From Escherichia phage Ecwhy_1, in sequence record MH791411.1: a DNA stretch of 64,000 bases; one strand, given 5' to 3'. The notes beneath the pieces were generated by a model. The model ran no database searches. It was given only the letters and a program-made list of their open reading frames with translations, and was not told where the DNA came from. This document shows positions 1 through 64,000 of the stretch, piece after piece (position 1 is the first letter of the stretch; each line of letters begins with the position of its first letter). A program made the position numbers and the translations under genes.

Positions 1-195
1 AAAAATACAATGATAGCAATATGATAGACATACATCCACTTATTGTGTCCATGTTTATTACCATTCCTGAATTCTCGGTATAAACATTTAGTATGATTGT
101 ATAACACCACACAAATAAACACAACTATGAAACAAAAAATCCACTCGTAAACTATGTATGCCATCAGATATACTCTCTCTTTATAATTATTATTC

Positions 196-789
196 TCAGT
201 ATTTCAAAATATCAAACTCTGGACTAACACTTGTTACATTATCACTGACAATTTTGAAAATAGACTCAACACGTTCATGTAACTGAACATTGGTTTCTTC
301 TTGAACTTCAATATACGCTGACATGGATGCAATTGCATGATAAGTCCCACTTCCGACAGCAGTAATTTGTGTTTTAGGTTGCAGTACTGAAAAGTCTTCT
401 TGAACTTCATAAATCGTATGATTATGAAGAATAATGAACTGACCACCACCAACGTCTTGTGATGCATCACGAGCACCCCATTCATCTTTAAACATTTGAC
501 GAATGATAGGAATAACTTTCAGTACTAGATACTGTGAAAAGGTTTCCCCTGCAACTTGTTCTGGTAGAGTTAGGTTGTAATTCAACAACTGTCCCATGCG
601 GAACGAGGTAGTATACCCCAACGCCATTACTTCTTTAGTGCGAGAAAGACCATCCTCATTGAGTTTAATGAACTCTTTCTCAAATACTTTAGGCTCAGTT
701 TGAACTGCTTTAGTGAAACCATTGCTTCCTAATTTATCACCAGCGATGAAGGAAGATGTGCCATTTGTGTGAGCGATAATACAAGTCAT
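196..789 (-). CDS. HslV-like N-terminal-nucleophile (proteasome-type) peptidase
   Basis: Track ORF 196..858 trimmed to internal ATG at 787-789 so product begins M-T-C-I-I-A (Thr right after Met as in HslV); AVGSGT motif; revcomp upstream has AGGAG RBS. Confidence 0.7.
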   Translation of the reverse strand: MTCIIAHTNGTSSFIAGDKLGSNGFTKAVQTEPKVFEKEFIKLNEDGLSRTKEVMALGYTTSFRMGQLLNYNLTLPEQVAGETFSQYLVLKVIPIIRQMFKDEWGARDASQDVGGGQFIILHNHTIYEVQEDFSVLQPKTQITAVGSGTYHAIASMSAYIEVQEETNVQLHERVESIFKIVSDNVTSVSPEFDILKY

Positions 790-1046
790 GAAATAACTCC
801 TTGTGCAAAAAGGGCCGTATACAACCAGTATATCAACAACCCTAGTGTAAGTAAACATGCTCCATAAGAAATTGATAGAACATAGTAAATTCCTGCTTCT
901 AACTTGGATGAAAATTTGTGTGTACTGGAATCCATAAAACCACGTTTGTAGTCTTTATAGATGAAACATGTTAAAACTAATGTAATGCAATATACAATAG
1001 TTGTTGCATAAAAAACAAGAGATGTTAAGTTTTGTAAATTTGTCAT
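786..1046 (-). CDS. small hydrophobic (membrane) protein
   Basis: 86 aa ORF with two hydrophobic stretches; AGGAG 8 nt upstream of ATG; 4-nt overlap with downstream gene. Confidence 0.45.
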   Translation of the reverse strand: MTNLQNLTSLVFYATTIVYCITLVLTCFIYKDYKRGFMDSSTHKFSSKLEAGIYYVLSISYGACLLTLGLLIYWLYTALFAQGVIS

Positions 1047-1138
1047 AGTTTATACACTCCTAGTGTATGTGAACTTATAACAAAGGATGTACCACTTTAT
1101 CATCCTCTTATTATAATATTATTATTTTGTATCTAATA

Positions 1139-1747
1139 CTAATGAATGATACTACCTAATTCGAGCAACTGATCTGGTGTAAGTCTTACAACTTCATTAC
1201 CACGAACCTTACTAACCTCCACTAACAATTCTGGAGGAATACCATTCGCTGCATATAACGCAAATAGAACACCAACCTTAGTTGATAGCTGTTCAGCAAA
1301 AATAGTCATTTGGCGAACTGATATGTATGTGTCATCACTATTTCGTGCTTTACTTTCGATTGACACATTATGTAGACCTAGAATTGAGTCCTTCATCATG
1401 TATCTGTTTTCTATATTAGCACTAAAGAATGCGATAGTGCAAGAAGAATTACAATATCTTTCAACAATAATTGTTAAATTGTTATCATTGACAAAATTTC
1501 CTAGTGCCACTCCCGCATCAAAATCACCACCTGGTGACGTAATGATGATCGTGTCAAATGGGTGTGTTTCTCTAAAAACCATCAAACGGTTTACAGTATT
1601 TTCAGTTAAAGTTGAAATGAACTGAACTGTCTGTTTAGATTCATCATATCTAATGATACTTTTTCTTTCAACACCTGCACTTGCAGGAAAGTTAATTAAG
1701 AAAATAATAATAATAGATTGGATGATTTCTTTACATAATCGTACCAC
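1139..1747 (-). CDS. Clp-protease-superfamily (ClpP/SppA-like) serine peptidase with signal-peptide-like N-terminus
   Basis: 202 aa; ITSPGGDFDAG motif typical of ClpP/S49 fold; hydrophobic N-term ending ASAG; GTG start with AGAGGG RBS. Confidence 0.55.
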   Translation of the reverse strand: MVRLCKEIIQSIIIIFLINFPASAGVERKSIIRYDESKQTVQFISTLTENTVNRLMVFRETHPFDTIIITSPGGDFDAGVALGNFVNDNNLTIIVERYCNSSCTIAFFSANIENRYMMKDSILGLHNVSIESKARNSDDTYISVRQMTIFAEQLSTKVGVLFALYAANGIPPELLVEVSKVRGNEVVRLTPDQLLELGSIIH

Positions 1748-1787
1748 TGGTTAACCCTCTTAGTTGATTGTTGATTACATAAATAAT

Positions 1788-1814
1788 ATTATAGGAAGAT
1801 TTAACTTAAGTCAA
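1788..1814 (-). promoter_or_regulatory. sigma70-like promoter (TTGACT-N15-TATAAT on minus strand)
   Basis: Revcomp of 1788-1814 reads TTGACTtaagttaaatcttccTATAAT about 40 nt upstream of the 1747 start. Confidence 0.4.
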
Positions 1815-1882
1815 ATTGTTTTTTATATCACTTCACAAATTCCCTCGCAGAATCACCCCGCCTTTTTACCTTCTTTGGAATG

Positions 1883-1893
1883 ATTATATCACA
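1883..1893 (-). promoter_or_regulatory. extended -10 element TGTGATATAAT
   Basis: Revcomp of 1883-1893 is TGTGATATAAT; same 11-mer recurs upstream of clpP at 5409-5419. Confidence 0.3.
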
Positions 1894-2007
1894 CTAATGT
1901 ATAATGTCTATGCTTTTGTCAACAAATAACGTGGTAGTACTGAACTCGTTGTTGGTTCTAAGAGTTTTCCTGAAATTCAAACAAGTTGTGTACTAACAAA
2001 AGAAAAA

Positions 2008-2023
2008 GGAGCCTTATGGCTCC
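2008..2023. terminator. bidirectional intrinsic terminator hairpin
   Basis: GGAGCC-ttat-GGCTCC flanked by A-run (2002-2007) and T-run (2024-2030); immediately after stop of 2029..2295 gene. Confidence 0.55.
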
Positions 2024-2028
2024 TTTTT

Positions 2029-2295
2029 TTATTCTACCGTATTAAGTTTCTGACAAATCATGTCAGCTTCAACACGGTCTTTATAATAAATGGTAAAACC
2101 AAATTTACCAGTTACTTTATACTCTTTACAAGTTAAACAATTTACAATGTAGTACTTGTTGTTTTGTGCTGAAAATCGTACTTCATGATTACGCATCACT
2201 GGTGGAGTAGTATTATCATTTAATACCATCATCACTAAAAGTACAAGAATCACAACTGCAAATGGAATACCTAAAATCAAGAAAGTCAAAGTCAC
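2029..2295 (-). CDS. small membrane protein
   Basis: 88 aa; N-terminal 25-residue hydrophobic helix. Confidence 0.45.
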   Translation of the reverse strand: MTLTFLILGIPFAVVILVLLVMMVLNDNTTPPVMRNHEVRFSAQNNKYYIVNCLTCKEYKVTGKFGFTIYYKDRVEADMICQKLNTVE

Positions 2296-2768
2296 AACCC
2301 CTTATCATAAATGCAATTTACAATAATCCCAGCATCTTCCAGTACTTTAATAGCTTCTGGTGGAGTGCGAGGATAACTTTTGTGATAAATCACACGAGCA
2401 ATACCACTTCCCGCGATCAACTTAGAACAAGTATAGCATGGTTGTAGCGTTGTGTAAAGTGTTGCTCCCTGACGTTCAGTAGGTGAACTGTATAACAATG
2501 CATTCATTTCAGCATGGATTTCATGGATATTACTCCATTCATGGTGTTCATGCTTTGCGTCATCGCTAACCCAGTCTTGGAAACGTCCACCATTAACTAA
2601 GTGCTCATTAGCGTCACAGCAGTTAGGTTGTTTAGATGGAGTGCCATTATAACCAGTACTCAATACTCGGTTATTTTTAACAATAACACAACCAACTTTC
2701 TGTGAAATGCATTTACTCTCTTCAGCCACGACTTCGGCTATCTTCAACCACGTCAAGTGTTTCATCAT
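2292..2768 (-). CDS. dCMP deaminase (cytidine/deoxycytidylate deaminase family)
   Basis: 158 aa; zinc-binding H-A-E-x-N-A-L and P-C-x-x-C motifs. Confidence 0.85.
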   Translation of the reverse strand: MMKHLTWLKIAEVVAEESKCISQKVGCVIVKNNRVLSTGYNGTPSKQPNCCDANEHLVNGGRFQDWVSDDAKHEHHEWSNIHEIHAEMNALLYSSPTERQGATLYTTLQPCYTCSKLIAGSGIARVIYHKSYPRTPPEAIKVLEDAGIIVNCIYDKGL

Positions 2769-3249
2769 ATACTCCTAGGGATTGTAATTTGGCTTTACAG
2801 TTCGAATGTATTTTAAGAATACGAAGGTAGTTTAGCACATCTGATTCTTCAATGTCAAATGGTTTCGCTGCATAAACGTCCCATGCTCCCATTAATTCTG
2901 TACAGAACTTGATATCACCCGAACCCAGCAACTTGTCACGGAATTGTTTAAACTCGATTTCTTCATCGGATAATGAAAAACCCAAATCCATAAAGCACAT
3001 ACCACCAGCACTGAAGCATGACCCAGATGATGTACCAATTAAAATATCATCCATCCCATATAAGCCGTAAAAAATATTGGAGTACCAAGTACTAAGTTTA
3101 CTTCGGTGATGATATTTAAGAACATTCTTCTTGATATTTACATCTAATGAATTAGCTGTTGATATCACTTTTTTGGTTAAAATAATAGTTTTGTTCAAAT
3201 TACTCAACCATACTTTAGTATCAGTTGGGCTAAGAGCAGTGTATTTCAT
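2722..3249 (-). CDS. hypothetical protein
   Basis: 175 aa ORF in co-directional chain; GTSSGS motif only; 47-nt overlap with downstream gene. Confidence 0.45.
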   Translation of the reverse strand: MKYTALSPTDTKVWLSNLNKTIILTKKVISTANSLDVNIKKNVLKYHHRSKLSTWYSNIFYGLYGMDDILIGTSSGSCFSAGGMCFMDLGFSLSDEEIEFKQFRDKLLGSGDIKFCTELMGAWDVYAAKPFDIEESDVLNYLRILKIHSNCKAKLQSLGVYDETLDVVEDSRSRG

Positions 3250-3250
3250 G

Positions 3251-3775
3251 TTAATCCTCTAAATTCCATTCATCAACCATAGTTGAGCATAATTCCATGT
3301 GTCGGAAATATTTCTCATTAAGTGAATATGGACTCTTATAAAATTGTCGTACATCAGTGAATATATCATAGTTTCTATATATAAATGACATATTTTTATT
3401 CATGAATTCTATAATCTTCCATAACTTTTCTGTATCGTTTTGTATAGTTTCTGCACTCAATCCCGTCAATTTCATTAGACGCTTGATTTTGAAGCCTGAC
3501 TCTATTGACGTATTATTATGCTTAGTTAAGTAACTATAGCCGATAGAACTCTGTATTAGTTCGATACTATCAGTACTAGTTATTGTTCCTAGAAATGATT
3601 TTAAATTTCTATTCAACCAATACCATTTTTTGTTCTTGTTATAGCAAGAATACCACTTTTTAACTATAGCTATTGCCTCTGAATTTAAACTTTCGGCAAA
3701 TTCATCAATTAAAAACATGTGATTGAAAAATAAATCACTTTGATCTTCAGATAATTTATATTGCTGCATATCCAC
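3251..3775 (-). CDS. hypothetical protein
   Basis: 174 aa ORF in co-directional chain. Confidence 0.5.
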   Translation of the reverse strand: MDMQQYKLSEDQSDLFFNHMFLIDEFAESLNSEAIAIVKKWYSCYNKNKKWYWLNRNLKSFLGTITSTDSIELIQSSIGYSYLTKHNNTSIESGFKIKRLMKLTGLSAETIQNDTEKLWKIIEFMNKNMSFIYRNYDIFTDVRQFYKSPYSLNEKYFRHMELCSTMVDEWNLED

Positions 3776-3850
3776 CTACCCTATTAACAATTACACCTTG
3801 GGTATTTACCTCGTATGGATCAATTTTTGATCAATAATTTTTGATATGCA

Positions 3851-3881
3851 GCAAATAAAATGGGAATCATGAAAGATTCCC
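3851..3881 (-). terminator. intrinsic terminator
   Basis: Minus-strand hairpin GGGAATC-tttcat-GATTCCC followed by ATTTTATTTGC; directly after stop of 3889..4335. Confidence 0.45.
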
Positions 3882-3888
3882 TAAGTAA

Positions 3889-4335
3889 TTATTTCTGGAA
3901 TGGAGTGTACTGGTACTGCTCACAATCAGATACAGTTAGTACACCTTCATCATAACCGTACTGGAGAATAAGATCAAATGCTTTATCAACCATAGCTACA
4001 ACGTCTTTGTAACGAACGATGGTATGTGCCTGTTTCTCAACTGCTTTCATAATACCCATCAACATCCAGCGACCTTCATCAGTGTGAAGTTTAGCAAAAC
4101 GAGGACGTTTAGTTGCTGCCATAATGTCAGTCCATTCTGCTTTAAACACTGATGGACGTTTAGGAATATCATACAGAGTTGTTGGGAATGTTACGTTGTT
4201 TTTCTTCATAGCTTCAGCTTGTGCAGCACGATAACCTTGACGGAATAGTGGGTGCTGTGATTTTAGCTGTTCATTGTTAAAAACTACTTTGTTTTTAAAC
4301 GCGGCAGAACCTTCTTTGTATTGTGCATTAGACAT
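3889..4335 (-). CDS. hypothetical protein
   Basis: Track ORF trimmed to ATG at 4333-4335 (MSNAQYKEG) preceded by GAGGGGAAAGAATAAT. Confidence 0.5.
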   Translation of the reverse strand: MSNAQYKEGSAAFKNKVVFNNEQLKSQHPLFRQGYRAAQAEAMKKNNVTFPTTLYDIPKRPSVFKAEWTDIMAATKRPRFAKLHTDEGRWMLMGIMKAVEKQAHTIVRYKDVVAMVDKAFDLILQYGYDEGVLTVSDCEQYQYTPFQK

Positions 4336-4336
4336 A

Positions 4337-4666
4337 TTATTCTTTCCCCTCGTCAGTACTGATGAATTTTTTATCTGAGAATGTGCCATGTTCTTGACGC
4401 ATAGCTTCTGCGTGTTGAACTGCGTTAATTGGATTAATGTTCTTTTTAATAAGAACTTCTTGCATTAGTTCGAGAACAATAGAAAAACCATTGAGTACTC
4501 GTTCTGCCTCGTCAACACCTTTCAATTCAATAGCCACTGCACTAATCTGATCTAATGCGGTATTAATAAACTCTGAATCATCTAACACATCATTGACTTC
4601 AGTATTATTACGTACAAGAACTTTCATATAATCTCCAGAAATAAGATGCCCCAAATGAGGCATCAA
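4337..4666 (-). CDS. hypothetical protein
   Basis: 109 aa ORF in chain. Confidence 0.5.
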   Translation of the reverse strand: MMPHLGHLISGDYMKVLVRNNTEVNDVLDDSEFINTALDQISAVAIELKGVDEAERVLNGFSIVLELMQEVLIKKNINPINAVQHAEAMRQEHGTFSDKKFISTDEGKE

Positions 4667-4678
4667 ATGAAATTCAAA

Positions 4679-5374
4679 TTAGACCCACTCTTCCACGCCA
4701 CCGCGACGTTTGACGAGATACTTACCTTCTTCGTTGCGTGGACCAAGGATGATACCATCAATGAAACCATGTTCACCGTATTCGAGTGCTTCTTCAGCGT
4801 TCAACCACAGGTCACGATCCGCATCTTTCAGTAGTTGTTCGTGTGATACACCAACTGCTTCAGCAATTTCTTTAGTCAGTAGTGTGTTCAATGCATCAGA
4901 GTGTTTCAAGGAAATCTTCTGATCAGTAATCAGACCCTGAGTACCGGAACTTACTTGGTGACACATGAAGTAAGAACGCTTCCCGCCTAGACGGAAACCT
5001 TTAGTACCAACTACTGATTGTGTATAGCAACCCATTGATGCTGCATAACCCATTACTACTGTACGGATAGGAGATACACAAGACTTAGCAATGTCAGCGA
5101 TACCTAAACCTGCGTGTACTGAACCACCAGGAGAACTAATGTAGAAGGTAATTGGTTCAGAACCCTGAGAATCCAACCACACCAATTGTTGCTTGATGAT
5201 ATGTGCCATTTGGTCATTGAAGTCAGTATCAAGGAAAATGATACGGTCTTGCATCATACGAGATGCTAGATCATAAGTACGTTCTGCACCATTAACTTTT
5301 TCAACTACATAAGGAATAGAAATGTCGCGAACTTCACCACCAGCATAACCACCAAAATTGAATTGTTCAACCAT
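4679..5374 (-). CDS. clpP: ATP-dependent Clp protease proteolytic subunit ClpP
   Basis: 231 aa; YISSPGGSV, MGYAASMG (Ser nucleophile), downstream His and Asp; collinear with bacterial ClpP; AGAGGAAAATAACA RBS. Confidence 0.9.
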   Translation of the reverse strand: MVEQFNFGGYAGGEVRDISIPYVVEKVNGAERTYDLASRMMQDRIIFLDTDFNDQMAHIIKQQLVWLDSQGSEPITFYISSPGGSVHAGLGIADIAKSCVSPIRTVVMGYAASMGCYTQSVVGTKGFRLGGKRSYFMCHQVSSGTQGLITDQKISLKHSDALNTLLTKEIAEAVGVSHEQLLKDADRDLWLNAEEALEYGEHGFIDGIILGPRNEEGKYLVKRRGGVEEWV

Positions 5375-5408
5375 TGTTATTTTCCTCTATTGTTTCATTG
5401 ATGTGAGT

Positions 5409-5440
5409 ATTATATCACAGTGTTCGTATTTGTCTACAAG
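5409..5440 (-). promoter_or_regulatory. sigma70-like promoter with extended -10 (CTTGTAG ... TGTGATATAAT)
   Basis: Revcomp of 5409-5440 = cttgtagacaaatacgaacacTGTGATATAAT, about 35 nt upstream of clpP start. Confidence 0.4.
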
Positions 5441-5817
5441 TTTCTTAAAAAATCGAGTAAACCGCAAATTGTATGTTTATTAAACATATCGTGGTCAATC
5501 TTTAACAACTTAACCATAGCATTATCATACACCGTAGAGTCGGTAATGTCAAACAAAGAATTTGTGTAATAACGTTCATTTTCTACATAAATGTATAATT
5601 CATTTGATTTGTCAAGATCTTCATAGAAGTTAGCATCAAAGTACTCTGCATTTCCATCAATCCAAACCTCAACTGAATCATCATCTAAGCAGTAGTTTCT
5701 TGCTTCTTTTGAATATATTTCCAGCTTTCTGGCTGCACTGGAGTAATGTTTATAACCATTAATTACGTACTTTATTTCATCATTGTACTCAATTACATAC
5801 ACAACGATATTTTCCAT
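5434..5817 (-). CDS. hypothetical protein
   Basis: 127 aa ORF. Confidence 0.5.
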   Translation of the reverse strand: MENIVVYVIEYNDEIKYVINGYKHYSSAARKLEIYSKEARNYCLDDDSVEVWIDGNAEYFDANFYEDLDKSNELYIYVENERYYTNSLFDITDSTVYDNAMVKLLKIDHDMFNKHTICGLLDFLRNL

Positions 5818-6212: not shown

Positions 6213-6221
6213 AGTAATTCC

Positions 6222-7013: not shown

Positions 7014-7032
7014 AATTACCTCCTATAAATGA

Positions 7033-56909: not shown

Positions 56910-56970
56910 AATTTTCTACCCTAATGATTAACGTACAGGTACTATATCAGTAATGAAAAGTACTGTCAAG

Positions 56971-57521: not shown

Positions 57522-57524
57522 TGT

Positions 57525-58140: not shown

Positions 58141-58330
58141 GTAAAGCTCTCAAATACTTCTGTACTGCTTGCTCTTGATGATCTGTACCTAAAAGTATAT
58201 ACATCCATAATTCACTGTAATGTACATCTTGTGTATAAGGGTTGTTGTAACTTTTTGATAATATAGCATCAAATTCAGATGCATGAACCCTTGCGAACTT
58301 AAGCATATCTTGTTGTGTTATGATTCTCAT
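58109..58330 (-). CDS. family B paralog
   Basis: 73 aa; L-G-T-D-H-Q-E-Q-A-V. Confidence 0.55.
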   Translation of the reverse strand: MRIITQQDMLKFARVHASEFDAILSKSYNNPYTQDVHYSELWMYILLGTDHQEQAVQKYLRALRDATANGVHV

Positions 58331-58542
58331 ATCTTTTCCTGTACTATCTGCATAAGAATCTCTATGTGTGAATTAACAGTTCTCTCTTGATGCTGTGTTC
58401 CTAAGAGTGTCAGTACTATCATATCTGAACGCAAAAGATTTTTTTCAAGTTCACTTATATCAGTTCTTGAATCAAGTGCCATATATTTGTGATTATTCTT
58501 CCTGAATAGTGCCAAGTACTCTTGATTTGATATTTCCTTCAT
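58327..58542 (-). CDS. family B paralog
   Basis: 71 aa; L-G-T-Q-H-Q-E-R-T-V. Confidence 0.55.
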   Translation of the reverse strand: MKEISNQEYLALFRKNNHKYMALDSRTDISELEKNLLRSDMIVLTLLGTQHQERTVNSHIEILMQIVQEKI

Positions 58543-58778
58543 AGTTTATCCCTGATGCCATTTAAAAGTGCTCTAATATGCTCCTGTACGAATTTGTACT
58601 GACTGTCTGTTCCTAGAGTGAGTAGTAATCTTAAATCTGAACTTTTGATATGATATTCTAAATCATTATTTGATTCTTGCATCAGTTTCTTAAAGGATGA
58701 GAAGTTTGCAGCCATTAGTTCAATGTATTCTGCTGTTCCTAGGGGTTTGTGTATTGGCTGTTTGTGCTGTCTGTGCAT
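58539..58778 (-). CDS. family B paralog
   Basis: 79 aa; L-G-T-D-S-Q-Y-K-F-V. Confidence 0.55.
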   Translation of the reverse strand: MHRQHKQPIHKPLGTAEYIELMAANFSSFKKLMQESNNDLEYHIKSSDLRLLLTLGTDSQYKFVQEHIRALLNGIRDKL

Positions 58779-58990
58779 TTTAATTTTATTACCCTTTTGA
58801 GTGTATTAATGTAATTATACACATTGGCTTCTTGATAGTTTGTTCCTAGAGTAGCTTGAACGTAGATTTCATTTAACTTAATAATTTTATCAGTATCTGG
58901 AAGTTTTGATGTGTTAATGGCAAATAACTTCGAAAACAGTCCATTTATGATTGTTAGGTATTCTTCGTCGGTAATGATTCGCATTTGCAT
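58739..58990 (-). CDS. family B paralog
   Basis: 83 aa; L-G-T-N-Y-Q-E-A-N-V. Confidence 0.55.
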   Translation of the reverse strand: MQMRIITDEEYLTIINGLFSKLFAINTSKLPDTDKIIKLNEIYVQATLGTNYQEANVYNYINTLKRVIKLKCTDSTNSQYTNP

Positions 58991-59196
58991 TGGATAAACC
59001 TTTTTAGTTCTTTGATGTAATCATTAATATTACATTCTTGATAGTTAGTCCCTAGGGTAGAATTAACATAGATTTCACTCATTAGAATATTTTTTTCTTC
59101 ATCAGGTAAATCTGTGGTCTTTGCTATATACAATTTTAGAATTAAACTACTTAATAGTTCGTGGTATTCACTTGGTGAAAGGATTTTCATTTGCAT
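58954..59196 (-). CDS. family B paralog
   Basis: 80 aa; L-G-T-N-Y-Q-E-C-N-I. Confidence 0.55.
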   Translation of the reverse strand: MQMKILSPSEYHELLSSLILKLYIAKTTDLPDEEKNILMSEIYVNSTLGTNYQECNINDYIKELKRFIQCKCESLPTKNT

Positions 59197-59402
59197 GTTC
59201 TCAGTACAGATTCTTTAAGTTCATCGATGTAGTCCTCAACGAATTGCTCTTGGAAGTTAGTTCCAACATATAAAAGAACTCTTAAATCTGCTCTAAGTAA
59301 CTCTTTTTCATCCTCATCTATATCAGACAATGTTATGTTTAAGAATTTACTTGTATTAAAGATTAACAATTCTGTTTGTTCACTGTGGCTTAAAATTTTC
59401 AT
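59187..59402 (-). CDS. family B paralog
   Basis: 71 aa; V-G-T-N-F-Q-E-Q-F-V. Confidence 0.55.
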   Translation of the reverse strand: MKILSHSEQTELLIFNTSKFLNITLSDIDEDEKELLRADLRVLLYVGTNFQEQFVEDYIDELKESVLRTCK

Positions 59403-59610
59403 AATCTCTTTTTGCTTTCCTCGACAGTAGGTACAAATACGATTCTTCGTATTGTGCTTGGAAGTTTGTGTTTAAGAGTCGAAACAACTTCTGTTCTGCT
59501 AGAACGAGTTGCTTATCTTCATAACAACGGTAGCGTATCAACTTTTTGTATTCGATGTTGATTACATCCATTACTATAAGCCCATGTTCATCATCTGTCA
59601 AGTGCTTCAT
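59380..59610 (-). CDS. family B paralog
   Basis: 76 aa; L-N-T-N-F-Q-A-Q-Y. Confidence 0.5.
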   Translation of the reverse strand: MKHLTDDEHGLIVMDVINIEYKKLIRYRCYEDKQLVLAEQKLFRLLNTNFQAQYEESYLYLLSRKAKRDYENFKPQ

Positions 59611-59848
59611 GCTTTTTTCTTTTCCTGATGTGTTTAGTTAAAAGGTATATTAGTTTTCTGATGTATTCTTCTTGATAGTTTGTTCCTAGGAGTGCCAGAA
59701 GTTTTGCTTCAACTAAAGCTAATTGACGTTCTTCAAATGTGTGTTCCAGTATGTACTTTGGGTTTGATTTTTTAGATATTGCACTATTAGTTTTCATTAC
59801 AATCTTATGATATTCATTAACTGTTAGGATTTTTAAATTCTTGAGCAT
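59591..59848 (-). CDS. family B paralog
   Basis: 85 aa; L-G-T-N-Y-Q-E-E-Y-I. Confidence 0.55.
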   Translation of the reverse strand: MLKNLKILTVNEYHKIVMKTNSAISKKSNPKYILEHTFEERQLALVEAKLLALLGTNYQEEYIRKLIYLLTKHIRKRKKHEALDR

Positions 59849-60074
59849 GTACCTTTTCCTTTATAGAGAATTTAAGATATCGAAGCATACTTTCAATGTA
59901 ATACTCTTGTCTGTCAGTGCCAAGAAAGTACATGAGTTGAATGTATAAAACTTCTGCACTCCTTTCGGCATGTGACTTGTTTGTGTCGTTTGGAAGTTGA
60001 TTTGTAAGTTTTCTGGATTTAATTAGTCGTTCTTTTAACTCATCGTCTGTTAAGTATTTCATTTCATTTTGCAT
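59817..60074 (-). CDS. family B paralog (MQNEM trio)
   Basis: 85 aa; F-L-G-T-D-R-Q-E-Y-Y-I. Confidence 0.55.
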   Translation of the reverse strand: MQNEMKYLTDDELKERLIKSRKLTNQLPNDTNKSHAERSAEVLYIQLMYFLGTDRQEYYIESMLRYLKFSIKEKVHAQEFKNPNS

Positions 60075-60294
60075 TTACTTTTTCCTTAATACTCATTACA
60101 AGATGTTCAATCATATTTTGAACCATAAATTCTTGTTTATCAGTTCCAAGAACGTATGGTAGCTTCTGAAACAATACATTCGCAGACATTTCATATATTG
60201 ATTGATTTGGAACGAACTTAAGAGTAATGTTATTGGCTTTTAACATCTTCTCTTGAAATTCTTCATTCGTTAAGTATATCATTTCACTTTGCAT
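60064..60294 (-). CDS. family B paralog (MQNEM trio)
   Basis: 76 aa; V-L-G-T-D-K-Q-E-F-M-V. Confidence 0.55.
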   Translation of the reverse strand: MQSEMIYLTNEEFQEKMLKANNITLKFVPNQSIYEMSANVLFQKLPYVLGTDKQEFMVQNMIEHLVMSIKEKVNAK

Positions 60295-60520
60295 TTACTT
60301 TTTCCATAATAGTAATTTTGAGATATTTAATTATACGTTCAATGTGATACTCTTGCCTATCAGTTCCAAGAATGTATGGTAATCTTTGGAATAAAACTTC
60401 TGCACTCCTTTCCGCTGGGGTTTGGTTTGGGTTGTGTGGAAGATATTTTGTAAGTTTTTTGGATTTATCTAGTCTTTCTGTTAACTCATCATGTGTTAAG
60501 TATATCATTTCATTTTGCAT
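60284..60520 (-). CDS. family B paralog (MQNEM trio)
   Basis: 78 aa; I-L-G-T-D-R-Q-E-Y-H-I. Confidence 0.55.
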   Translation of the reverse strand: MQNEMIYLTHDELTERLDKSKKLTKYLPHNPNQTPAERSAEVLFQRLPYILGTDRQEYHIERIIKYLKITIMEKVNAK

Positions 60521-60756
60521 TTAATGTTCCTTACGTAAATTGTCTGGATTAAACAATCAATCCAAGTTTGAATATATTGGTTTTGATACTGTGTGCCTAA
60601 GAGACTCTGCATTTTAAACTCTGCTTCAAGTTCATATCTCTTTTCTATAGAAAAGCTCAAATGACCATATTCTTTATCGTATCTTCTCAGTGCTTCCCCA
60701 ATTCTATCAAATCTTTCTGCTAATCTGATGTTATTCACAATATTCATCGCATTCAT
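60505..60756 (-). CDS. family B paralog
   Basis: 83 aa; L-G-T-Q-Y-Q-N-Q-Y-I. Confidence 0.55.
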   Translation of the reverse strand: MNAMNIVNNIRLAERFDRIGEALRRYDKEYGHLSFSIEKRYELEAEFKMQSLLGTQYQNQYIQTWIDCLIQTIYVRNIKCKMK

Positions 60757-61031
60757 CGATCAGTACACCTCAGTGGTTGGGTCATTTGATGAAAGTACAG
60801 CTTACCTCTGATTTCCAGTAGTAACTCAGCAATTAAGCGATTTACTTCTGGCTCTTGATAGTTTGTTCCTAAGAATACACCCATCTTTAACTCACGCATC
60901 ATAATCATTTTCTTACTGTGTTGAATTTCTGGGTTGTGATAGATTGTATTACGTTTGTGCGTAATTTTTGTCATACGCTCGGTATATTCATCTTTACTTA
61001 AATTGATCATTTGCATGTTCATCAACCTCAC
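60753..61031 (-). CDS. family B paralog
   Basis: 92 aa; L-G-T-N-Y-Q-E-P-E-V. Confidence 0.55.
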   Translation of the reverse strand: MRLMNMQMINLSKDEYTERMTKITHKRNTIYHNPEIQHSKKMIMMRELKMGVFLGTNYQEPEVNRLIAELLLEIRGKLYFHQMTQPLRCTDR

Positions 61032-61242
61032 ATTTATTTTCGATACAAATCATGAGTTCTCTAAGATAGTTTTTTACCTTACCTGCCTGATAGTTCGTCC
61101 CCAGGAAGTTGCATAACTCTGCTTCTATCATTTTGATTCTTCTGTTATCAGGTTTCAATTTTTTGTTATTGAAGATTTGAATCCTTATATCCCTTGATGC
61201 ATTTAAACGTTTTTGATATTCATGGAAAGATAAATTAATCAT
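60994..61242 (-). CDS. family B paralog
   Basis: 82 aa; L-G-T-N-Y-Q-A-G-K-V. Confidence 0.55.
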   Translation of the reverse strand: MINLSFHEYQKRLNASRDIRIQIFNNKKLKPDNRRIKMIEAELCNFLGTNYQAGKVKNYLRELMICIENKCEVDEHANDQFK

Positions 61243-61457
61243 TTACTTTGTATCTCTCTCTTGAGGGCATCAATTAACAACAGTACAGCATTCTCTTGAT
61301 AGTTTGTTCCTAAGACTGAAAGCATCTTAATCTCATTTACTACGATCAACTTCTTTGAGCGTTCAATAATGTTACTATTATAAACGGCGTTACGTGCTGG
61401 ATAAGTTTTTGCAAGACGTTCATAATATTCATCTTTACTTAAATTAATCATTTGCAT
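61239..61457 (-). CDS. family B paralog
   Basis: 72 aa; L-G-T-N-Y-Q-E-N-A-V. Confidence 0.55.
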   Translation of the reverse strand: MQMINLSKDEYYERLAKTYPARNAVYNSNIIERSKKLIVVNEIKMLSVLGTNYQENAVLLLIDALKREIQSK

Positions 61458-61666
61458 TTACTTTTGACCTCCTTGACTAATGCATCAACCCACATGTCTA
61501 TATACATTTGTTGATAGTTTGTCCCTATGAGTGCCCCTGCATAGAGTTCAGCTATCAATGCATGTTTTAGGTTGGCAGGGATGCTCTTATCAGATTGAAT
61601 CTTTACTCTTCTGTTGGCACATGTTTTCAGGAGTCTGATGTATTCAAAGCCTTGTAATTTTCTCAT
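61448..61666 (-). CDS. family B paralog
   Basis: 72 aa; I-G-T-N-Y-Q-Q-M-Y-I. Confidence 0.55.
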   Translation of the reverse strand: MRKLQGFEYIRLLKTCANRRVKIQSDKSIPANLKHALIAELYAGALIGTNYQQMYIDMWVDALVKEVKSKCK

Positions 61667-61878
61667 TCTTTTGATATCACCTTGTTACGTAAGGCACTTA
61701 ACAATACGTCAGTGTAGATGTTTTGATAGTTTGTTCCTACGAATACACCCAACTTCATTTCAGCTATTATAACACATTTGTCCTCTTGTGCAATAGACTT
61801 GTCTAAAGAAATACTAACAACTTTCCTTCTTATAGCTTGTAACCTCCAATGATACTGAAACTCATTTAGGGTTATCAT
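61663..61878 (-). CDS. family B paralog
   Basis: 71 aa; V-G-T-N-Y-Q-N-I-Y. Confidence 0.55.
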   Translation of the reverse strand: MITLNEFQYHWRLQAIRRKVVSISLDKSIAQEDKCVIIAEMKLGVFVGTNYQNIYTDVLLSALRNKVISKE

Positions 61879-62113
61879 TCTCTCGCCTCCATATCTCGGT
61901 TCTAATGTGTTGACATTGTGCTTCGATGAACATATCTATTGATTTGGCAATTGCTTTTTTATCAGTGCCTGTCATCAGTACAAGCATCTCGGCCTCACAG
62001 TGAAGTAAACGCATGATATCATAGGGTAATATTCCAGATACCGTGTCATAGTGTTTCTGTGCCAGTGTCTGTAATAGTTTACAATACATTTTGTGATTTA
62101 GTCTTTGTCGCAT
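61862..62113 (-). CDS. family B paralog (degenerate core)
   Basis: 83 aa; M-T-G-T-D-K-K-A-I. Confidence 0.45.
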   Translation of the reverse strand: MRQRLNHKMYCKLLQTLAQKHYDTVSGILPYDIMRLLHCEAEMLVLMTGTDKKAIAKSIDMFIEAQCQHIRTEIWRRENDNPK

Positions 62114-62370
62114 TGTCTATTCCATTCTTTTTTGGCCTTGATGGTTTTATATTGGATTTGGTTTCTTAATGCTGATAAGTATCGTTGAATGAACAGATCT
62201 TGATAGTTTGTTCCAATGAATTTCATAAGATAAAGTTCACCGTTGATAACATCCACTTCAGGTGCACCATATAAGGCATTGTTTTTTCTAAGGGCATGGA
62301 TTAAAGAGAATAGGGCAGTTTGATACTCAACTCCTGATAAAGTCTTCATGTTTTGTGAGCCAATAATCAT
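62098..62370 (-). CDS. family B paralog
   Basis: 90 aa; I-G-T-N-Y-Q-D-L-F-I. Confidence 0.55.
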   Translation of the reverse strand: MIIGSQNMKTLSGVEYQTALFSLIHALRKNNALYGAPEVDVINGELYLMKFIGTNYQDLFIQRYLSALRNQIQYKTIKAKKEWNRQCDKD

Positions 62371-62590
62371 CTAGTTTATCCTGTATAACATTCATTAATT
62401 GTTCGACATATTCTGTGCAAAACTTATCTTGATATTGAGTCCCCATAAAGTACAGCAACCATAGCTCATTAACTTTAGCTCGCATTTGGTTCCATGTAAG
62501 GCTGGGGTCATCGTAGACTATCCTTGCTATAGGGGTTAGTTTACGGACTATAGTTTCATATTCATCTAGTGTTAAGTGTTTCATTTGCAT
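62327..62590 (-). CDS. family B paralog
   Basis: 87 aa; M-G-T-Q-Y-Q-D-K-F. Confidence 0.55.
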   Translation of the reverse strand: MQMKHLTLDEYETIVRKLTPIARIVYDDPSLTWNQMRAKVNELWLLYFMGTQYQDKFCTEYVEQLMNVIQDKLDDYWLTKHEDFIRS

Positions 62591-62799
62591 TTGTCCCTTA
62601 TTAAATCAGTGAGGGCAACTATGTGTGCAACAACATACTCTTCCTGAAAGTTCGTCCCCAGTACAGCCATCATGCGTATATCGGTGGTGTTTATTCTGTG
62701 TTCCCTTACACATAAACCTTCTGTGTGAGGAAGTGTAAAATATTTGTTTATTGCAGCAACGATAATTTTATTCTTCTCGTAATTACTTAAATGTTTCAT
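62581..62799 (-). CDS. family B paralog
   Basis: 72 aa; L-G-T-N-F-Q-E-E-Y-V. Confidence 0.55.
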   Translation of the reverse strand: MKHLSNYEKNKIIVAAINKYFTLPHTEGLCVREHRINTTDIRMMAVLGTNFQEEYVVAHIVALTDLIRDKCK

Positions 62800-63008
62800 A
62801 GTTTGCTCTTAATGTATTTCTGGAGTGCAATTATATACTCATTCAAGAAGTGCTCCTGATAATCTGTGCCGAGGAATGCACCCAATAGTATATCATTTTC
62901 CAATACTAATGCTAAGTTTAAATCATCAGTCTCTTCATATACTATGAGAATTTCAAGTTGTCTGGCAGCGACGCGTTCGGTATATAGATTTGAGTTAATG
63001 CTATTCAT
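62796..63008 (-). CDS. family B paralog (near-identical pair)
   Basis: 70 aa; L-G-T-D-Y-Q-E-H-F-L; C-term Y-I-I-A-L-Q-K-Y-I-K-S-K-L. Confidence 0.55.
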   Translation of the reverse strand: MNSINSNLYTERVAARQLEILIVYEETDDLNLALVLENDILLGAFLGTDYQEHFLNEYIIALQKYIKSKL

Positions 63009-63217
63009 AGTTTACTCTTAATGTAATTCTGGAGTGCAATTAAGTATTCCCCTACATAATACACCTGAAAGTCTGTATCCAAAAATGCACCCATAAGTAA
63101 ATCTTTTTCTAATACCCTTGATAAGTTAAGGTCTGCATTTGAATTGTATATAATTAAGATTTTATTCTGGACAGAAACAAAACGTATCTTATATTCTTCT
63201 GGTGTTAAAAAAATCAT
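63005..63217 (-). CDS. family B paralog (near-identical pair)
   Basis: 70 aa; L-D-T-D-F-Q-V-Y-Y-V; C-term Y-L-I-A-L-Q-N-Y-I-K-S-K-L. Confidence 0.55.
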   Translation of the reverse strand: MIFLTPEEYKIRFVSVQNKILIIYNSNADLNLSRVLEKDLLMGAFLDTDFQVYYVGEYLIALQNYIKSKL

Positions 63218-63423
63218 AGTTTACTCTTAATATCTTCTATTAAAAAATGAATCCAATCATCAACATACTCTTCCTGATGGTTTGTGTTCAGTACAGCCAA
63301 CATGCGGATCTCTGCTCTTGCAACTTGGATTTCAGTTTTAGAAAGGTCTTTGCTGATATCAAACATTAAGTCCATGTATTTCAAGATAAGACCGAATGAT
63401 TGGGTTCGTGTTATAGTTTTCAT
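63214..63423 (-). CDS. family B paralog
   Basis: 69 aa; L-N-T-N-H-Q-E-E-Y-V. Confidence 0.55.
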   Translation of the reverse strand: MKTITRTQSFGLILKYMDLMFDISKDLSKTEIQVARAEIRMLAVLNTNHQEEYVDDWIHFLIEDIKSKL

Positions 63424-63620
63424 TGTTTCCTCGTGGACAATATTTCATTTTTCAATGCATCCATATATTGAATCACCCATCTTCCCTGATAGCTTGTACC
63501 CAATGTAATCAAAAGGTATAACTCAATTCGTTCTAAGTTTGTGTCTGTGTTATAAATCTTTACCATGTTTTTACGTAACAGTTCTTGATAATCTTCTTTA
63601 TTTAAAATACGCATTTTCAT
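63420..63620 (-). CDS. family B paralog
   Basis: 66 aa; L-G-T-S-Y-Q-G-R-W-V. Confidence 0.55.
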   Translation of the reverse strand: MKMRILNKEDYQELLRKNMVKIYNTDTNLERIELYLLITLGTSYQGRWVIQYMDALKNEILSTRKQ

Positions 63621-63814
63621 AGTCTACCTTTTATGTCCCTTCGTAATTCTTGTAAGTATAGTTCGATATACTTTTCTTGATAGTTAGTTCCTATGAAAAG
63701 TTTCATAACCAATTCACGCTTATATGCAATACCACGGATATGTGACATATGTAAGATATATGCCATGTTGGATATGAGTGTGTGGTTGTGCTCTTCTTGA
63801 GTTAAAATACGCAT
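63617..63814 (-). CDS. family B paralog (first gene of array)
   Basis: 65 aa; I-G-T-N-Y-Q-E-K-Y-I; GGAG RBS 7 nt before ATG at 63812-63814. Confidence 0.55.
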   Translation of the reverse strand: MRILTQEEHNHTLISNMAYILHMSHIRGIAYKRELVMKLFIGTNYQEKYIELYLQELRRDIKGRL

Positions 63815-63844
63815 AGGGACTCCATTAAAAATAATATCAATCCA

Positions 63845-63872
63845 ATAATATACGATTCATATAAAAAGTCAA
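63845..63872 (-). promoter_or_regulatory. sigma70-like promoter TTGACT-N16-TATTAT heading the family B array
   Basis: Revcomp of 63845-63872 = TTGACTttttatatgaatcgtaTATTAT, about 30 nt upstream of the first family B start. Confidence 0.45.
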
Positions 63873-64000
63873 TAACATTTTATAAGTAATACCCCTTTAT
63901 CGAAGTCGCTAAGGTTACCCGCCCTTTAGCCCCCTACGCATTTTGCCATAGTCCAATCCCTTTTTATTCATAAAAGTCAAGGGATTACCTATGCATTTTT

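What the first reader, a model, noticed from the sequence alone, without database searches (positions are those of the whole stretch)
1..64000. Strong over-representation of the palindrome AGTACT (often as TCAGTACTGA)
By eye, AGTACT occurs several times per kb throughout: for example 383-388 and 521-526 in the first kb; four in 30001-31000; five in 40001-41000; two plus a near-match inside the ORF-free island (25505-25510, 25737-25742). With roughly one-third G+C a random expectation is about 0.3-0.4 per kb, so the excess is roughly ten-fold. It occurs in several reading frames (encoding S-T, V-L or Q-Y-x) and in non-coding DNA, so it is not a by-product of one protein motif. Phages usually deplete palindromic restriction-type sites; enrichment suggests a positive role such as a binding, nicking, modification or recombination site.
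Basis: seen in the sequence. Interest (0 to 1): 0.6.

Follow-up and report, generated by a model that had tools for sequence, protein, structure and literature searches.

The report
Selected AGTACT palindrome saturating jumbo phage
A whole group of giant bacterial viruses has packed its DNA with the six-letter palindrome AGTACT, about ten times more often than chance and about fifty times more densely than in a sampled 50 kb of its host's DNA, and evolution actively preserves the individual copies, so it is a working DNA signal whose reader is still unknown.

Summary
AGTACT occurs 192 times in the window against about 18.6 expected, in all reading frames and in non-coding DNA. It survives codon-aware nulls: 172 in genes vs 47 after synonymous shuffling.

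The window comes from an Asteriusvirus jumbo coliphage (fEgEco12/PBECO4 type). AGTACT is the top hexamer in five genera of the RaK2-like clade but is not enriched in T4 or E. coli. Individual sites are under purifying selection (76% conserved vs 51% for a local control). Flanks are two-fold symmetric, with CAGTACTG about 40-fold enriched.

It is not present "throughout". Two conserved holes exist, at 48481-56465 and 58521-64000. In the first, a one-sided variant (AGTACA, always on the sense strand) replaces the palindrome at the same per-strand density.

Outside the window, in the 21 kb terminal repeats, the motif is built into early promoters and forms an array at the genome end.

No paper I could search mentions it. 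The reader protein was not identified. My best guess is a clade-specific, phage-encoded symmetric DNA-recognition protein that uses the motif as a dense "self" tag and early-promoter operator. Rivals are a methyltransferase target (HIP1-like), a strand-specific replication signal, and a nickase site.

Side finding: GCGC is absolutely absent clade-wide.

The parts
1..48480 (.). Zone A: 178 AGTACT palindromes (3.7 per kb) spread through about 100 small minus-strand genes and the intergenic DNA.
   Evidence: Searches give the counts. One search gives the frame distribution and codon-aware nulls. One search shows the sites are conserved above background.
48481..56465 (-). Zone B: a hole with 0 AGTACT and 0 AGTAC on the + strand. 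Instead there are 43 copies of (C)AGTACA(G), all on the sense (-) strand. GTAC is still about 10 per kb.
   Evidence: Searches give counts and contexts. Codon-aware null: sense AGTACA 40 vs 15.5 and 5.6; sense GTACT 0 vs 4-4.8. The variant sites are conserved 69% vs 46%. The same pattern is seen in PBECO4, where only 22 of 44 sites are shared. The zone is not one gene family. The top-strand AGTAC density equals that of the neighbouring regions.
56466..58520 (.). Zone C: a 2 kb block between the two holes with 14 AGTACT (6.8 per kb). It is part of the longest block of about 95% identity with PBECO4.
58521..64000 (+). Zone D: a hole with 0 AGTACT and GTAC at chance level. It has 9 AGTACA on the + strand, the opposite polarity to zone B. 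It lies in a tandem array of 26 tiny paralogous genes. In fEgEco12 this hole starts within about 140 bp of the right boundary of the 20,993 bp terminal repeat, which would lie about 0.9 kb beyond the window's end.
   Evidence: Codon-aware null: sense TGTACT 9 vs 2.4 and 1.2, above all 200 shuffles. Eight of nine sites are conserved in PBECO4.
24329..24853 (-). Gene for a 174-aa Dam-family (PF05869) N6-adenine DNA methyltransferase. It is the only sequence-specific DNA enzyme domain detectable among 150 window proteins. It is a candidate but weakly supported partner of the motif.
   Evidence: Pfam E = 6e-33. Window-wide domain inventory. The family is widespread, and the enzyme is only 41% identical within the clade.
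4353..4362 (.). Example of the extended 10-bp palindrome TCAGTACTGA. Nine copies start at 4353, 7470, 12955, 16734, 18420, 30197, 42240, 42999 and 57413.
   Evidence: 9 observed vs 0.09 expected.

Best explanation
AGTACT (optimum CAGTACTG, fullest form TTCAGTACTGAA) is the recognition site of a clade-specific, phage-encoded protein that reads double-stranded DNA with two-fold symmetry.

Selection keeps the phage chromosome densely studded with this site, at about 3 per kb and 7-10 per kb in the terminal repeats. The host chromosome sample has about 0.06 per kb.

In the terminal repeats the same site sits at fixed positions against the -35 and -10 elements of the strong sigma-70-type early promoters, and in an array at the genome end.

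What is shown: the enrichment, its symmetry, site-level purifying selection, the clade-wide distribution, and the embedding in promoters and at the terminus.

For: (1) The exact hexamer stands far above its neighbours. In fEgEco12, O/E is 8.8 for AGTACT against 1.9, 1.3 and 1.4 for one-base variants at the outer, middle and inner positions. The palindrome is 2.7-fold above what two independent half-sites predict. CAGTACTG is 221 vs 5.4 expected.

(2) The flanks are mirror-symmetric even though genes run one way. Position -1 is A249/C430/G91/T207 and the complement-ordered +1 is 220/462/75/220. This argues for a duplex reader, not an RNA or codon effect.

(3) There is purifying selection on individual sites, with balanced turnover. 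Conservation is 76% vs 51%, z = 6.7, with 41 gains and 41 losses.

(4) AGTACT is the top hexamer in Asteriusvirus, Mimasvirus, Eneladusvirus, Alcyoneusvirus and the Munch group, on five host genera. It is not enriched in T4 (4 vs 7.6 expected) or in E. coli (3 vs 4.8 expected per 50 kb). This points to a phage-encoded reader.

(5) In the fEgEco12 terminal repeat, 73 of 138 sites are intergenic (10.9 per kb). They lie in AAAGTACTTGCAA...TATAAT and TTGACA-N9-AGTACTGTATAAT arrangements, often both together 20-22 bp apart. Seventeen sites fill the 1.7 kb non-coding left terminus. CBB shows the same arrangement.

(6) Density is lower in constrained structural and replication genes and higher in small accessory genes, as expected for many weakly selected sites competing with coding constraint.

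(7) The same clade has zero GCGC, which shows that short palindromes are used as all-or-none marks in these genomes.
Against: No reader was found. The 150 window proteins contain no recognisable DNA-binding or nuclease domain other than the Dam-family methyltransferase. Ten annotated regulator and nuclease candidates gave nothing informative. There is no SlmA/TetR-like homologue.

A 6-8 bp site is short for a classical helix-turn-helix dimer and is more typical of restriction/modification-type enzymes.

A symmetric binder does not explain zones B and D. There a one-sided variant is maintained, at the same per-strand density as elsewhere, with opposite polarity on the two sides of zone C.

None of the 192 window sites lies in a promoter context, so an operator role cannot explain the bulk of the sites.

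The benefit of about 1,000 intragenic binding sites is conjecture.
Confidence: 0.38

Rival explanations
1. Methyltransferase target, analogous to HIP1. An orphan phage DNA methyltransferase methylates AGTACT or its GTAC core. The methyl marks serve as an epigenetic self-mark or timing signal at early promoters, or a methylation-linked biased repair process creates and maintains the palindrome.
For: The site has the size, symmetry and sharp specificity of a type II methyltransferase target. The clade carries orphan methyltransferases, one of them in the window. In cyanobacteria every highly iterated palindrome co-occurs with a cognate methyltransferase, and one-base deviations concentrate at the outer positions (PMC4390886; PMC6105098). 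The same outer-position bias is seen here (O/E 1.9 vs 1.3-1.4). The GTAC core stays at about 10 per kb even in zone B. Adenine methylation at GTAC was at least quantified in coliphage Bas51 DNA (methods of PMC12548924).
Against: No enzyme can be assigned. The C5 methyltransferase appears to act in a CpG context in RaK2 (PMC3622015). The Dam-family enzyme belongs to a very widespread family and is only 41% identical between Asteriusvirus and Serratia BF, whose capsid proteins are 90% identical. Methylation alone gives no reason to enrich the site. A repair drive predicts depletion of specific one-off neighbours, yet AGTATT and AATACT have O/E of 1.4 and 1.3. A drive also would not leave sharp conserved holes or a strand-specific variant.
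Confidence: 0.2
2. Strand-specific replication or recombination signal. The working unit is 5'-AGTAC(W)-3' on one strand, read by a fork-associated enzyme such as the T4-type primase on the lagging-strand template. The palindrome packs the signal for both fork directions into six bases. Where fork direction is fixed, on either side of an origin in zone C, only one strand carries the signal.
For: Zone B keeps the top-strand AGTAC density of its neighbours (5.9 vs 6.6 per kb) and loses only the bottom-strand copy (0.12 vs 5.4 per kb). Polarity is opposite in zone D although gene orientation is unchanged, which excludes a transcription-linked cause. The one-sided sites are conserved in both zones. 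GC skew at 4-fold degenerate sites changes sign in the same sense (-0.25 in zone D, +0.22 in zone B). T4 and T7 primases start primers at GT-containing template sites (from memory). Dense sites at the genome terminus would help prime near the ends.
Against: Outside zones B and D, one-sided AGTAC sites are not conserved above background (z = 0.07 to 1.4). The palindrome exceeds the independent half-site prediction 2.7-fold. The GC4 skew is noisy genome-wide (sd 0.16), and its correlation with motif polarity is only r = 0.32. The zone D evidence rests on 9 sites, at least three in an A-V-L codon context and two of them at the family's conserved L/N-G-T position. CBB has no comparable polar zones. 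The fixed promoter positions remain unexplained.
Confidence: 0.17
3. Cleavage or nicking site of a phage-encoded ScaI-like endonuclease or nickase, comparable to the site-specific single-strand nicks of T5 virion DNA. Palindromes can be cut on both strands. The one-sided variants in zones B and D can only be nicked on one defined strand.
For: The site is restriction-enzyme-like. The total exclusion of palindromes next to the terminal-repeat boundary, together with retention of one-strand variants, fits avoidance of double-strand breaks there. The phage is T5-like in having long terminal repeats filled with pre-early genes. It encodes ligases and end-healing enzymes in the window.
Against: About 1,100 double-strand-cleavable sites per genome would be very risky. 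No nuclease of this kind was detected. Restriction digests of fEgEco12 DNA gave the predicted patterns with no sign of fragmentation (PMC13070987).
Confidence: 0.08
4. Binding site of a conserved host protein, for example the nucleoid-occlusion factor SlmA, whose site GTGAGTACTCAC has the same centre.
For: The SlmA site shares the central AGTACT and the 12-bp palindromic geometry (PMC3020112).
Against: SlmA requires G, T and a purine at positions 1-3. None of the 977 sites in fEgEco12's unique genome has those flanks. The phage prefers C at position 3, and G is the rarest base there. GAGTACTC is 6 vs 3.3 expected, while CAGTACTG is 221 vs 5.4. T4, which infects the same host, lacks the enrichment.
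Confidence: 0.03
5. No function. The excess would be a by-product of base composition, codon usage, a recurrent peptide motif, a dispersed repeat, or promoter sequences.
For: Part of the raw excess is absorbed by higher-order context: the order-3 Markov expectation is 81 and the order-4 expectation is 165. Those models already contain the motif's own sub-words. In the terminal repeats, many sites are parts of repeated promoter cassettes.
Against: All frames and non-coding DNA are affected, and the excess survives synonymous and codon-order shuffles. There is no information beyond +/-1 to 3 bases, so it is not a longer repeat. None of the 192 window sites is in a promoter context. Sites are conserved above background. 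The enrichment persists across genera whose proteins are only about 60% identical.
Confidence: 0.02

Closest known systems
HIP1 (GCGATCGC) and other highly iterated palindromes of cyanobacteria
   Same: Both are short palindromes massively over-represented across a whole genome, including inside genes in all frames. Both are conserved across a clade. In both, one-base deviations are biased to the outermost positions, and orphan methyltransferases are present in the same genomes. The function of HIP1 is also unresolved (PMC4390886, PMC6105098).
   Different: HIP1 is a GC-rich octamer in cellular genomes with demonstrated cognate methyltransferases. Here the motif is an AT-rich hexamer in a virus, and no cognate methyltransferase could be assigned. 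There are also sharp motif-free zones with a strand-specific variant, and the motif is embedded in early promoters and at the genome terminus. None of these features is noted for HIP1 in the sources read here.
Chi, KOPS and other over-represented oriented oligomers read by DNA-tracking enzymes
   Same: These are short words enriched several-fold by selection throughout coding DNA because an enzyme reads them along the chromosome. They act as a species-specific 'self' signal. The one-sided AGTACA variant in zones B and D behaves like a polar element.
   Different: Those signals are asymmetric and strand-biased genome-wide, whereas AGTACT is a palindrome. It is not the host's Chi: genuine GCTGGTGG is separately and strongly enriched in this phage (5 vs 0.34 expected in the window; 10 vs 0.18 in the terminal repeat).
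Global operator networks of plasmid partition/repressor proteins, for example KorB and KorA operators of IncP plasmids (from memory, not tested here)
   Same: One palindromic operator is reused at many places on a replicon. These places include positions immediately upstream of -35, positions overlapping -10, and sites far from any promoter.
   Different: Those networks have about a dozen 12-13 bp operators. Here there are about 1,100 sites with a 6-8 bp core, mostly inside genes, and no ParB/KorB-like protein was identified.
SlmA-binding sequence GTGAGTACTCAC of E. coli
   Same: It has the identical central AGTACT and the same 12-bp palindromic layout as the phage's commonest 12-mer, TTCAGTACTGAA.
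   Different: The outer three positions that SlmA requires are absent, and partly avoided, in the phage sites. No SlmA homologue is encoded.
Restriction-site avoidance in phage genomes
   Same: It concerns the same class of sequence (a type II restriction-type palindrome) and also acts genome-wide through selection. The same genomes show extreme avoidance of GCGC, GGTACC and CGTACG.
   Different: The sign is opposite: a ten-fold enrichment instead of depletion.

Membership tests
Highly iterated palindromes (HIP-type) | A short palindrome far above expectation throughout the genome, including coding DNA in all frames. | tested here: met
   192 vs 18.6 expected, frames 72/41/59, and it survives codon-aware nulls. 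There are 1115 sites in the fEgEco12 genome.
Highly iterated palindromes (HIP-type) | A cognate orphan methyltransferase specific for the palindrome or its core is encoded in the same genome. | tested here: inconclusive
   A Dam-family m6A enzyme and a C5 enzyme are present, but their specificity cannot be read from sequence. The C5 enzyme appears to be CpG-directed in RaK2. The Dam-family enzyme is poorly conserved within the clade.
Highly iterated palindromes (HIP-type) | [quoted passage not shown] | tested here: met
   O/E is 1.91 for outer-position variants, 1.28 for middle and 1.36 for inner.
SlmA-binding sites | G, T and a purine at positions 1-3 (and the mirror image) flanking AGTACT. 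| tested here: not met
   None of the 977 sites in fEgEco12's unique genome has the full flanks. C is preferred and G disfavoured at position 3.
Chi-type or KOPS-type polar signals | An asymmetric word with genome-wide strand bias that follows replication direction. | tested here: not met
   The main motif is a palindrome. Polarity is seen only for the AGTACA variant, within about 14 kb. The link to replication direction is weak.
Sigma-70 promoter element | The site lies at a fixed distance from -35/-10 hexamers upstream of genes. | tested here: not met
   None of the 192 window sites is in such a context. The feature is met only for the 73 intergenic sites of the terminal repeat, which lies outside the window.
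Dispersed repeat or mobile element | Sequence similarity extends well beyond the core. | tested here: not met
   Information content is 0.3 bit or less at +/-1 and about 0 beyond that.
Coding by-product (codon pair or peptide motif) | The excess is confined to one frame or one family and is removed by codon-aware shuffling. | tested here: not met
   One search gives the frames and shuffles. Sites are spread over many unrelated genes and families.
Restriction-modification target (ScaI type) | A cognate endonuclease and protective methylation at AGTACT. | not testable with these tools
   No nuclease domain was found in the window. The full proteome was not scanned. Methylation status needs wet-lab or long-read data. 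ScaI and RsaI were not among the enzymes used on fEgEco12 DNA.

The most novel reading that the evidence does not exclude
These jumbo phages distinguish their own, chemically unmodified DNA from host DNA with a two-word sequence code. One word is obligatory: AGTACT, at about 3 per kb in the phage against about 0.06 per kb in the host sample. The other is forbidden: GCGC, with zero copies in 354 kb against about 7 per kb in the host sample. Phage-encoded readers act on these words. One marks, organises or primes only phage DNA. The other could destroy any GCGC-bearing DNA. Next to the terminal repeat, the obligatory word is switched to a single-strand form (AGTACA) with opposite polarity on the two sides of a fixed replication start. 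This would be a sequence-based alternative to the base modifications that T-even phages use for self-recognition.
Probability: 0.15. Interest if true: 0.9.

Novelty: new variant of a known kind. Interest (0 to 1): 0.72.

Why it matters
Phage genomes are known for avoiding restriction-type palindromes. A ten-fold, selection-maintained enrichment shared by a whole clade of therapeutically studied jumbo phages (PBECO4, 121Q, RaK2, CBB and related groups) is the opposite, and it appears to be unreported.

It implies an unidentified, clade-conserved factor that reads about 1,100 sites per genome. Finding that factor could explain several open points:
- how these large phages with unmodified DNA tell self from host;
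- how they switch off their pre-early promoters;
- how they start replication or process their 21 kb terminal repeats.

The finding is directly testable, with ScaI/RsaI digestion, long-read methylome and nick mapping, and oligonucleotide pull-down. The motif also gives a simple sequence signature for recognising members of this clade in metagenomes.

Tried and rejected
1. Compositional or codon artefact. Rejected by Markov models, dinucleotide shuffles, synonymous shuffles and codon-order shuffles.
2. Longer repeat or mobile element. Rejected because the flanks carry almost no information.
3. Promoter element as the cause of the window's excess. Rejected: 0 of 192 sites are in a promoter context, and the generic promoter/terminator scan was at shuffle level.
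4. SlmA sites or a phage SlmA-like reader. Rejected by the flank test and by phmmer.
5. Host Chi analogue. Unlikely, because genuine Chi is itself enriched.
6. Very-short-patch-type repair drive. Not supported: AGTATT and AATACT are not depleted, and the alternative states of non-conserved sites are varied.
7. Holes as recently imported foreign DNA. No homologues exist outside Asteriusvirus. The pattern is kept in lineages whose zone B proteins are only about 40% identical, and only half of the variant sites are shared. Holes as one gene family were rejected for zone B.
8. C5 methyltransferase as the AGTACT enzyme. Unlikely, given CpG-context methylation in RaK2.
9. Dam-family enzyme as a clade-conserved reader. 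Weakened by its poor conservation.
10. Type II topoisomerase or gyrase preferred site. The paper I consulted gave no support, and the sharp specificity argues against it.
11. GC skew at 4-fold sites as proof of an origin in zone C. Only suggestive, because the genome-wide variance is large.
12. Origin-like repeats in zone C. Only remnants of paralogous genes were found.
13. Domain searches for a reader among 10 annotated candidates and all 150 window proteins. Nothing beyond the methyltransferase was found.
14. Literature. There is no mention of AGTACT in the fEgEco12, CBB or RaK2 papers, or in full-text searches.

Full report
**Observation.** AGTACT occurs 192 times in the 64 kb window. Dinucleotide-preserving shuffles give 18.55 +/- 4.39, never more than 29. 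Markov models of order 0-3 expect 21, 18, 39 and 81. Even under order 3, which already contains the motif's own sub-words, AGTACT is the top-ranked of all hexamers (z = 12.3), followed by its overlapping words GTACTG and CAGTAC. The window has 33.4% G+C. Almost all genes are on the minus strand. In 133 called genes there are 172 sites in frames 72/41/59, against 47 +/- 6 after shuffling synonymous codons within genes and 23 +/- 5 after shuffling codon order. Non-coding DNA carries the motif at the same density as coding DNA (2.9 per kb).

**What the sequence is.** Over 6000-18000 the window is 100% identical to Escherichia phage fEgEco12, and it is 88-99% identical to other Asteriusvirus jumbo coliphages such as WPEC5, CMSTMSU and PBECO4. 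I assembled the whole fEgEco12 record (374,733 bp). It has exact 20,993 bp direct terminal repeats, which its authors confirmed by restriction digestion (PMC13070987). The window corresponds roughly to record positions 21.9-85.9 kb, reverse-complemented. That places it just inside the left terminal repeat and running into the nucleotide-metabolism and repair genes (ligases, polynucleotide kinase, dCMP deaminase, Clp proteases).

**Anatomy of the motif.** The core is the bare hexamer. Only position -1 (C in 43%) and position +6 (G in 41%) carry any information, at most 0.3 bit. Genome-wide these flanks are mirror images: A249/C430/G91/T207 against 220/462/75/220. Genes run one way, so this symmetry argues for recognition of duplex DNA rather than of mRNA or codons. 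In the fEgEco12 unique genome the O/E values are:
- AGTACT: 8.8
- hexamers with only one AGTAC half: 1.9
- GTAC hexamers with no such half: 1.1

The palindrome is 2.7-fold above what independent halves predict. CAGTACTG is 221 vs 5.4 expected, whereas GAGTACTC is 6 vs 3.3. One-base variants are most tolerated at the outer positions (1.9, against 1.3-1.4 inside). Spacing is close to Poisson (CV 0.90, mean 400 bp in the genome core).

**Distribution.** fEgEco12 has 1115 sites. Density is 6.5-7 per kb in the terminal repeats and in the early region just left of the right repeat. It is about 3-5 per kb in the arrays of small accessory genes and about 2 per kb in structural and replication genes, whichever strand the genes are on. 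In the repeat, 73 of 138 sites are intergenic (10.9 per kb). They sit in sigma-70-type early promoters in two fixed registers, AAAGTACTTGCAA-N-TATAAT and TTGACA-N9-AGTACTGTATAAT, often both together 20-22 bp apart. Another 17 sites, mostly (T)TCAGTACTGA(A), fill the 1.7 kb non-coding left terminus. By contrast, none of the 192 window sites is in such a context.

**The two holes.** The window has no AGTACT in 48481-56465 (zone B; 29 expected at the local rate) or in 58521-64000 (zone D; 20 expected). In fEgEco12 these are gaps of 8631 and 5759 bp, while the next-largest gap is 1976 bp. Zone D begins within about 140 bp of the right boundary of the terminal repeat. Both holes are present in PBECO4. 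The more distant phage CBB lacks this accessory region and has no gap above 1.2 kb.

- **Zone B.** It still has about 10 GTAC per kb, but the motif is replaced by (C)AGTACA(G). There are 43 copies, all on the sense strand, and none in the other orientation. Codon-aware nulls give 40 vs 15.5 (synonymous) and 5.6 (codon order), while sense-strand GTACT is 0 vs 4-4.8. The top-strand AGTAC density in zone B (5.9 per kb) equals that of the neighbouring regions (6.6), and only the bottom-strand copy has vanished (0.12 vs 5.4). The zone consists of several small families and singletons. A member of family 1 lying inside it lacks AGTACT, while most of its paralogues outside carry 1-3 copies and one has none. 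The variant sites are conserved above background (69% vs 46%, z = 2.6). Only 22 of PBECO4's 44 are shared with the window, and one zone B protein is only about 40% identical between the two lineages. The pattern is therefore actively maintained and is not inherited passively.
- **Zone D.** This is a tandem array of 26 tiny paralogues. GTAC is at chance level there, but AGTACA occurs nine times in the opposite orientation. Sense-strand TGTACT is 9 vs 2.4 and 1.2, above all 200 shuffles. Eight of the nine sites are conserved in PBECO4. At least three of the nine fall in an A-V-L codon context, two of them at the family's conserved L/N-G-T position, which weakens this evidence.

Gene orientation is the same in both zones, so the polarity of the one-sided variant follows position and not transcription.

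**Evidence for function.** Across 60.7 kb aligned to PBECO4 (85% identity), 133 of 174 AGTACT sites are fully conserved (76%). Same-phase hexamers within 150 bp are conserved at 51% (z = 6.7), and eight control hexamers sit at baseline. Gains and losses are balanced at 41 each. AGTACT is also the top hexamer in every clade sample tested:
- Pectobacterium phage CBB: 153 vs 10.7
- Serratia phage BF: 86 vs 12.2
- Klebsiella phage RaK2: 95 vs 8.5
- Salmonella phage Munch: 65 vs 11.3

Two out-group samples show no enrichment: T4 (4 vs 7.6) and E. coli K-12 (3 vs 4.8 in 50 kb). The capsid protein defines this clade sharply, with 86 records at 60% identity or more and then a drop to about 30%. The motif is thus an old, clade-specific, selected DNA signal, about 50 times denser in the phage than in the sampled host DNA.

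- The window encodes a 174-aa Dam-family (PF05869) adenine methyltransferase at 24329-24853. It is the only sequence-specific DNA enzyme domain among 150 window proteins, and about 135 of those have no Pfam match. That family is present in about 2,200 phage records. The enzyme is only 41% identical between Asteriusvirus and Serratia BF, whose capsid proteins are 90% identical. This fits poorly with a clade-invariant specificity.
- The genome's short C5 methyltransferase probably acts in a CpG context, as bisulfite data for RaK2 indicate (PMC3622015).
- Ten annotated nuclease or regulator candidates gave nothing useful.
- The E. coli nucleoid-occlusion protein SlmA binds GTGAGTACTCAC (PMC3020112). 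None of the 977 sites in fEgEco12's unique genome has the required flanks, and the phage encodes no SlmA homologue.
- fEgEco12 DNA is cut normally by ten restriction enzymes, so there is no global base modification. None of those enzymes overlaps GTAC.

**Interpretation.** The firm conclusion is that AGTACT is a functional, positively selected duplex-DNA signal read by a factor specific to this phage clade. As mechanism I favour (0.38) a phage-encoded, two-fold symmetric DNA-recognition protein. For it the motif would be a dense self tag on the chromosome, and an operator in pre-early promoters and at the genome end. The rivals are:
- A methyltransferase target of the HIP1 kind (0.20). The parallel with Elhai's analysis is close, but no enzyme can be assigned, and neither a mark nor a repair drive explains the holes.
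- A strand-specific replication or recombination signal whose bidirectional form is the palindrome, with an origin in zone C (0.17). This is the only idea that explains zones B and D and the equal per-strand density. However, one-sided sites elsewhere are not conserved, and the 4-fold-site GC skew support (-0.25 vs +0.22) is not exceptional genome-wide (sd 0.16, r = 0.32).
- A nickase or endonuclease site (0.08).
- A host-factor site or no function at all. Both are essentially excluded.

Zones B and D remain the least explained feature under my preferred model.

**Novelty.** Full-text searches for AGTACT with jumbo-phage or bacteriophage terms returned nothing relevant, and the fEgEco12, CBB and RaK2 papers do not mention the motif. 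The closest known phenomenon is the highly iterated palindrome HIP1 of cyanobacteria, and the closest functional analogues are Chi-type self signals. I therefore rate this as a new variant of a known kind, and I know of no phage precedent.

Noticed in passing
window 1-64000; also fEgEco12, PBECO4, CBB, BF, RaK2 and Munch loci (L001-L014, L017): The tetranucleotide GCGC is completely absent: 0 vs 25.7 expected in the window, and 0 vs 215 in the 354 kb unique genome of fEgEco12. It is also 0 in every clade sample (expected 13-70), yet normal in T4 (50 vs 54) and E. coli (342 vs 388). This suggests a clade-wide lethal GCGC reader, possibly a phage nuclease aimed at host DNA.
   Followed up: partly
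window 1-64000 and clade loci: The GTAC-containing palindromes GGTACC and CGTACG are also absent (window 0 vs 4.4 and 0 vs 2.7; fEgEco12 0 vs 36 and 0 vs 22.5), although GTAC itself is enriched. Their asymmetric relatives CGTACC and GGTACG do occur.
   Followed up: partly
window 25597 (+ strand) and 3002, 5337, 9906, 17529 (- strand); fEgEco12 terminal repeat: The E. coli recombination hotspot Chi (GCTGGTGG) is strongly enriched. There are 5 in the window vs 0.34 expected. There are 10 in one orientation in the 21 kb terminal repeat vs 0.18 expected. An inverted Chi pair lies about 0.58 kb from the left genome end. This suggests the phage's exposed DNA ends are managed through host RecBCD.
   Followed up: partly
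window 1-64000: T4-type late-promoter words are strongly avoided on both strands: TAAATA 8 vs 59, TATTTA 15 vs 68, ATAAATA 1 vs 19, TATAAATA 0 vs 5.9. This is consistent with avoidance of spurious late promoters in this early/middle region.
   Followed up: no
window 57297-63814 (- strand): A tandem array of 26 tiny paralogous genes (65-92 aa) shares an L-G-T-N-Y-Q-E motif. Most have overlapping start and stop codons. They are found only in Asteriusvirus phages.
   Followed up: partly
window 17882-57866 (13 genes, - strand): A dispersed paralogous family of 13 genes. Seven of its members carry a conserved acidic E-E-(L/Y/E)-F-Q-(Y/E)-S/L-L-(V/I)-x-D motif. Other small families are also present, and about 135 of the 150 window proteins have no Pfam match.
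   Followed up: no
fEgEco12 L001 1-20993 (outside the window, about 0.9 kb beyond its end): The terminal repeat holds about 56 tiny genes, many of them preceded in the ~85 bp intergenic gaps by a near-consensus sigma-70-type promoter cassette carrying AGTACT against -35 and/or -10. This resembles the pre-early (first-step-transfer) region of T5.
   Followed up: partly
Salmonella phage Munch L014: CCWGG (Dcm-type site) is absent (0 vs 27 expected) in the 40 kb sampled, unlike in the other clade members.
   Followed up: no
window 48400-60400: This stretch is only 97.6% identical to fEgEco12, with indels (5 aligned pieces), whereas 6000-18000 is 100% identical. The window therefore comes from a close relative or mosaic that is not identical to any record in the collection. 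Identity to PBECO4 is mosaic, ranging from 70% to 98% per kb.
   Followed up: no
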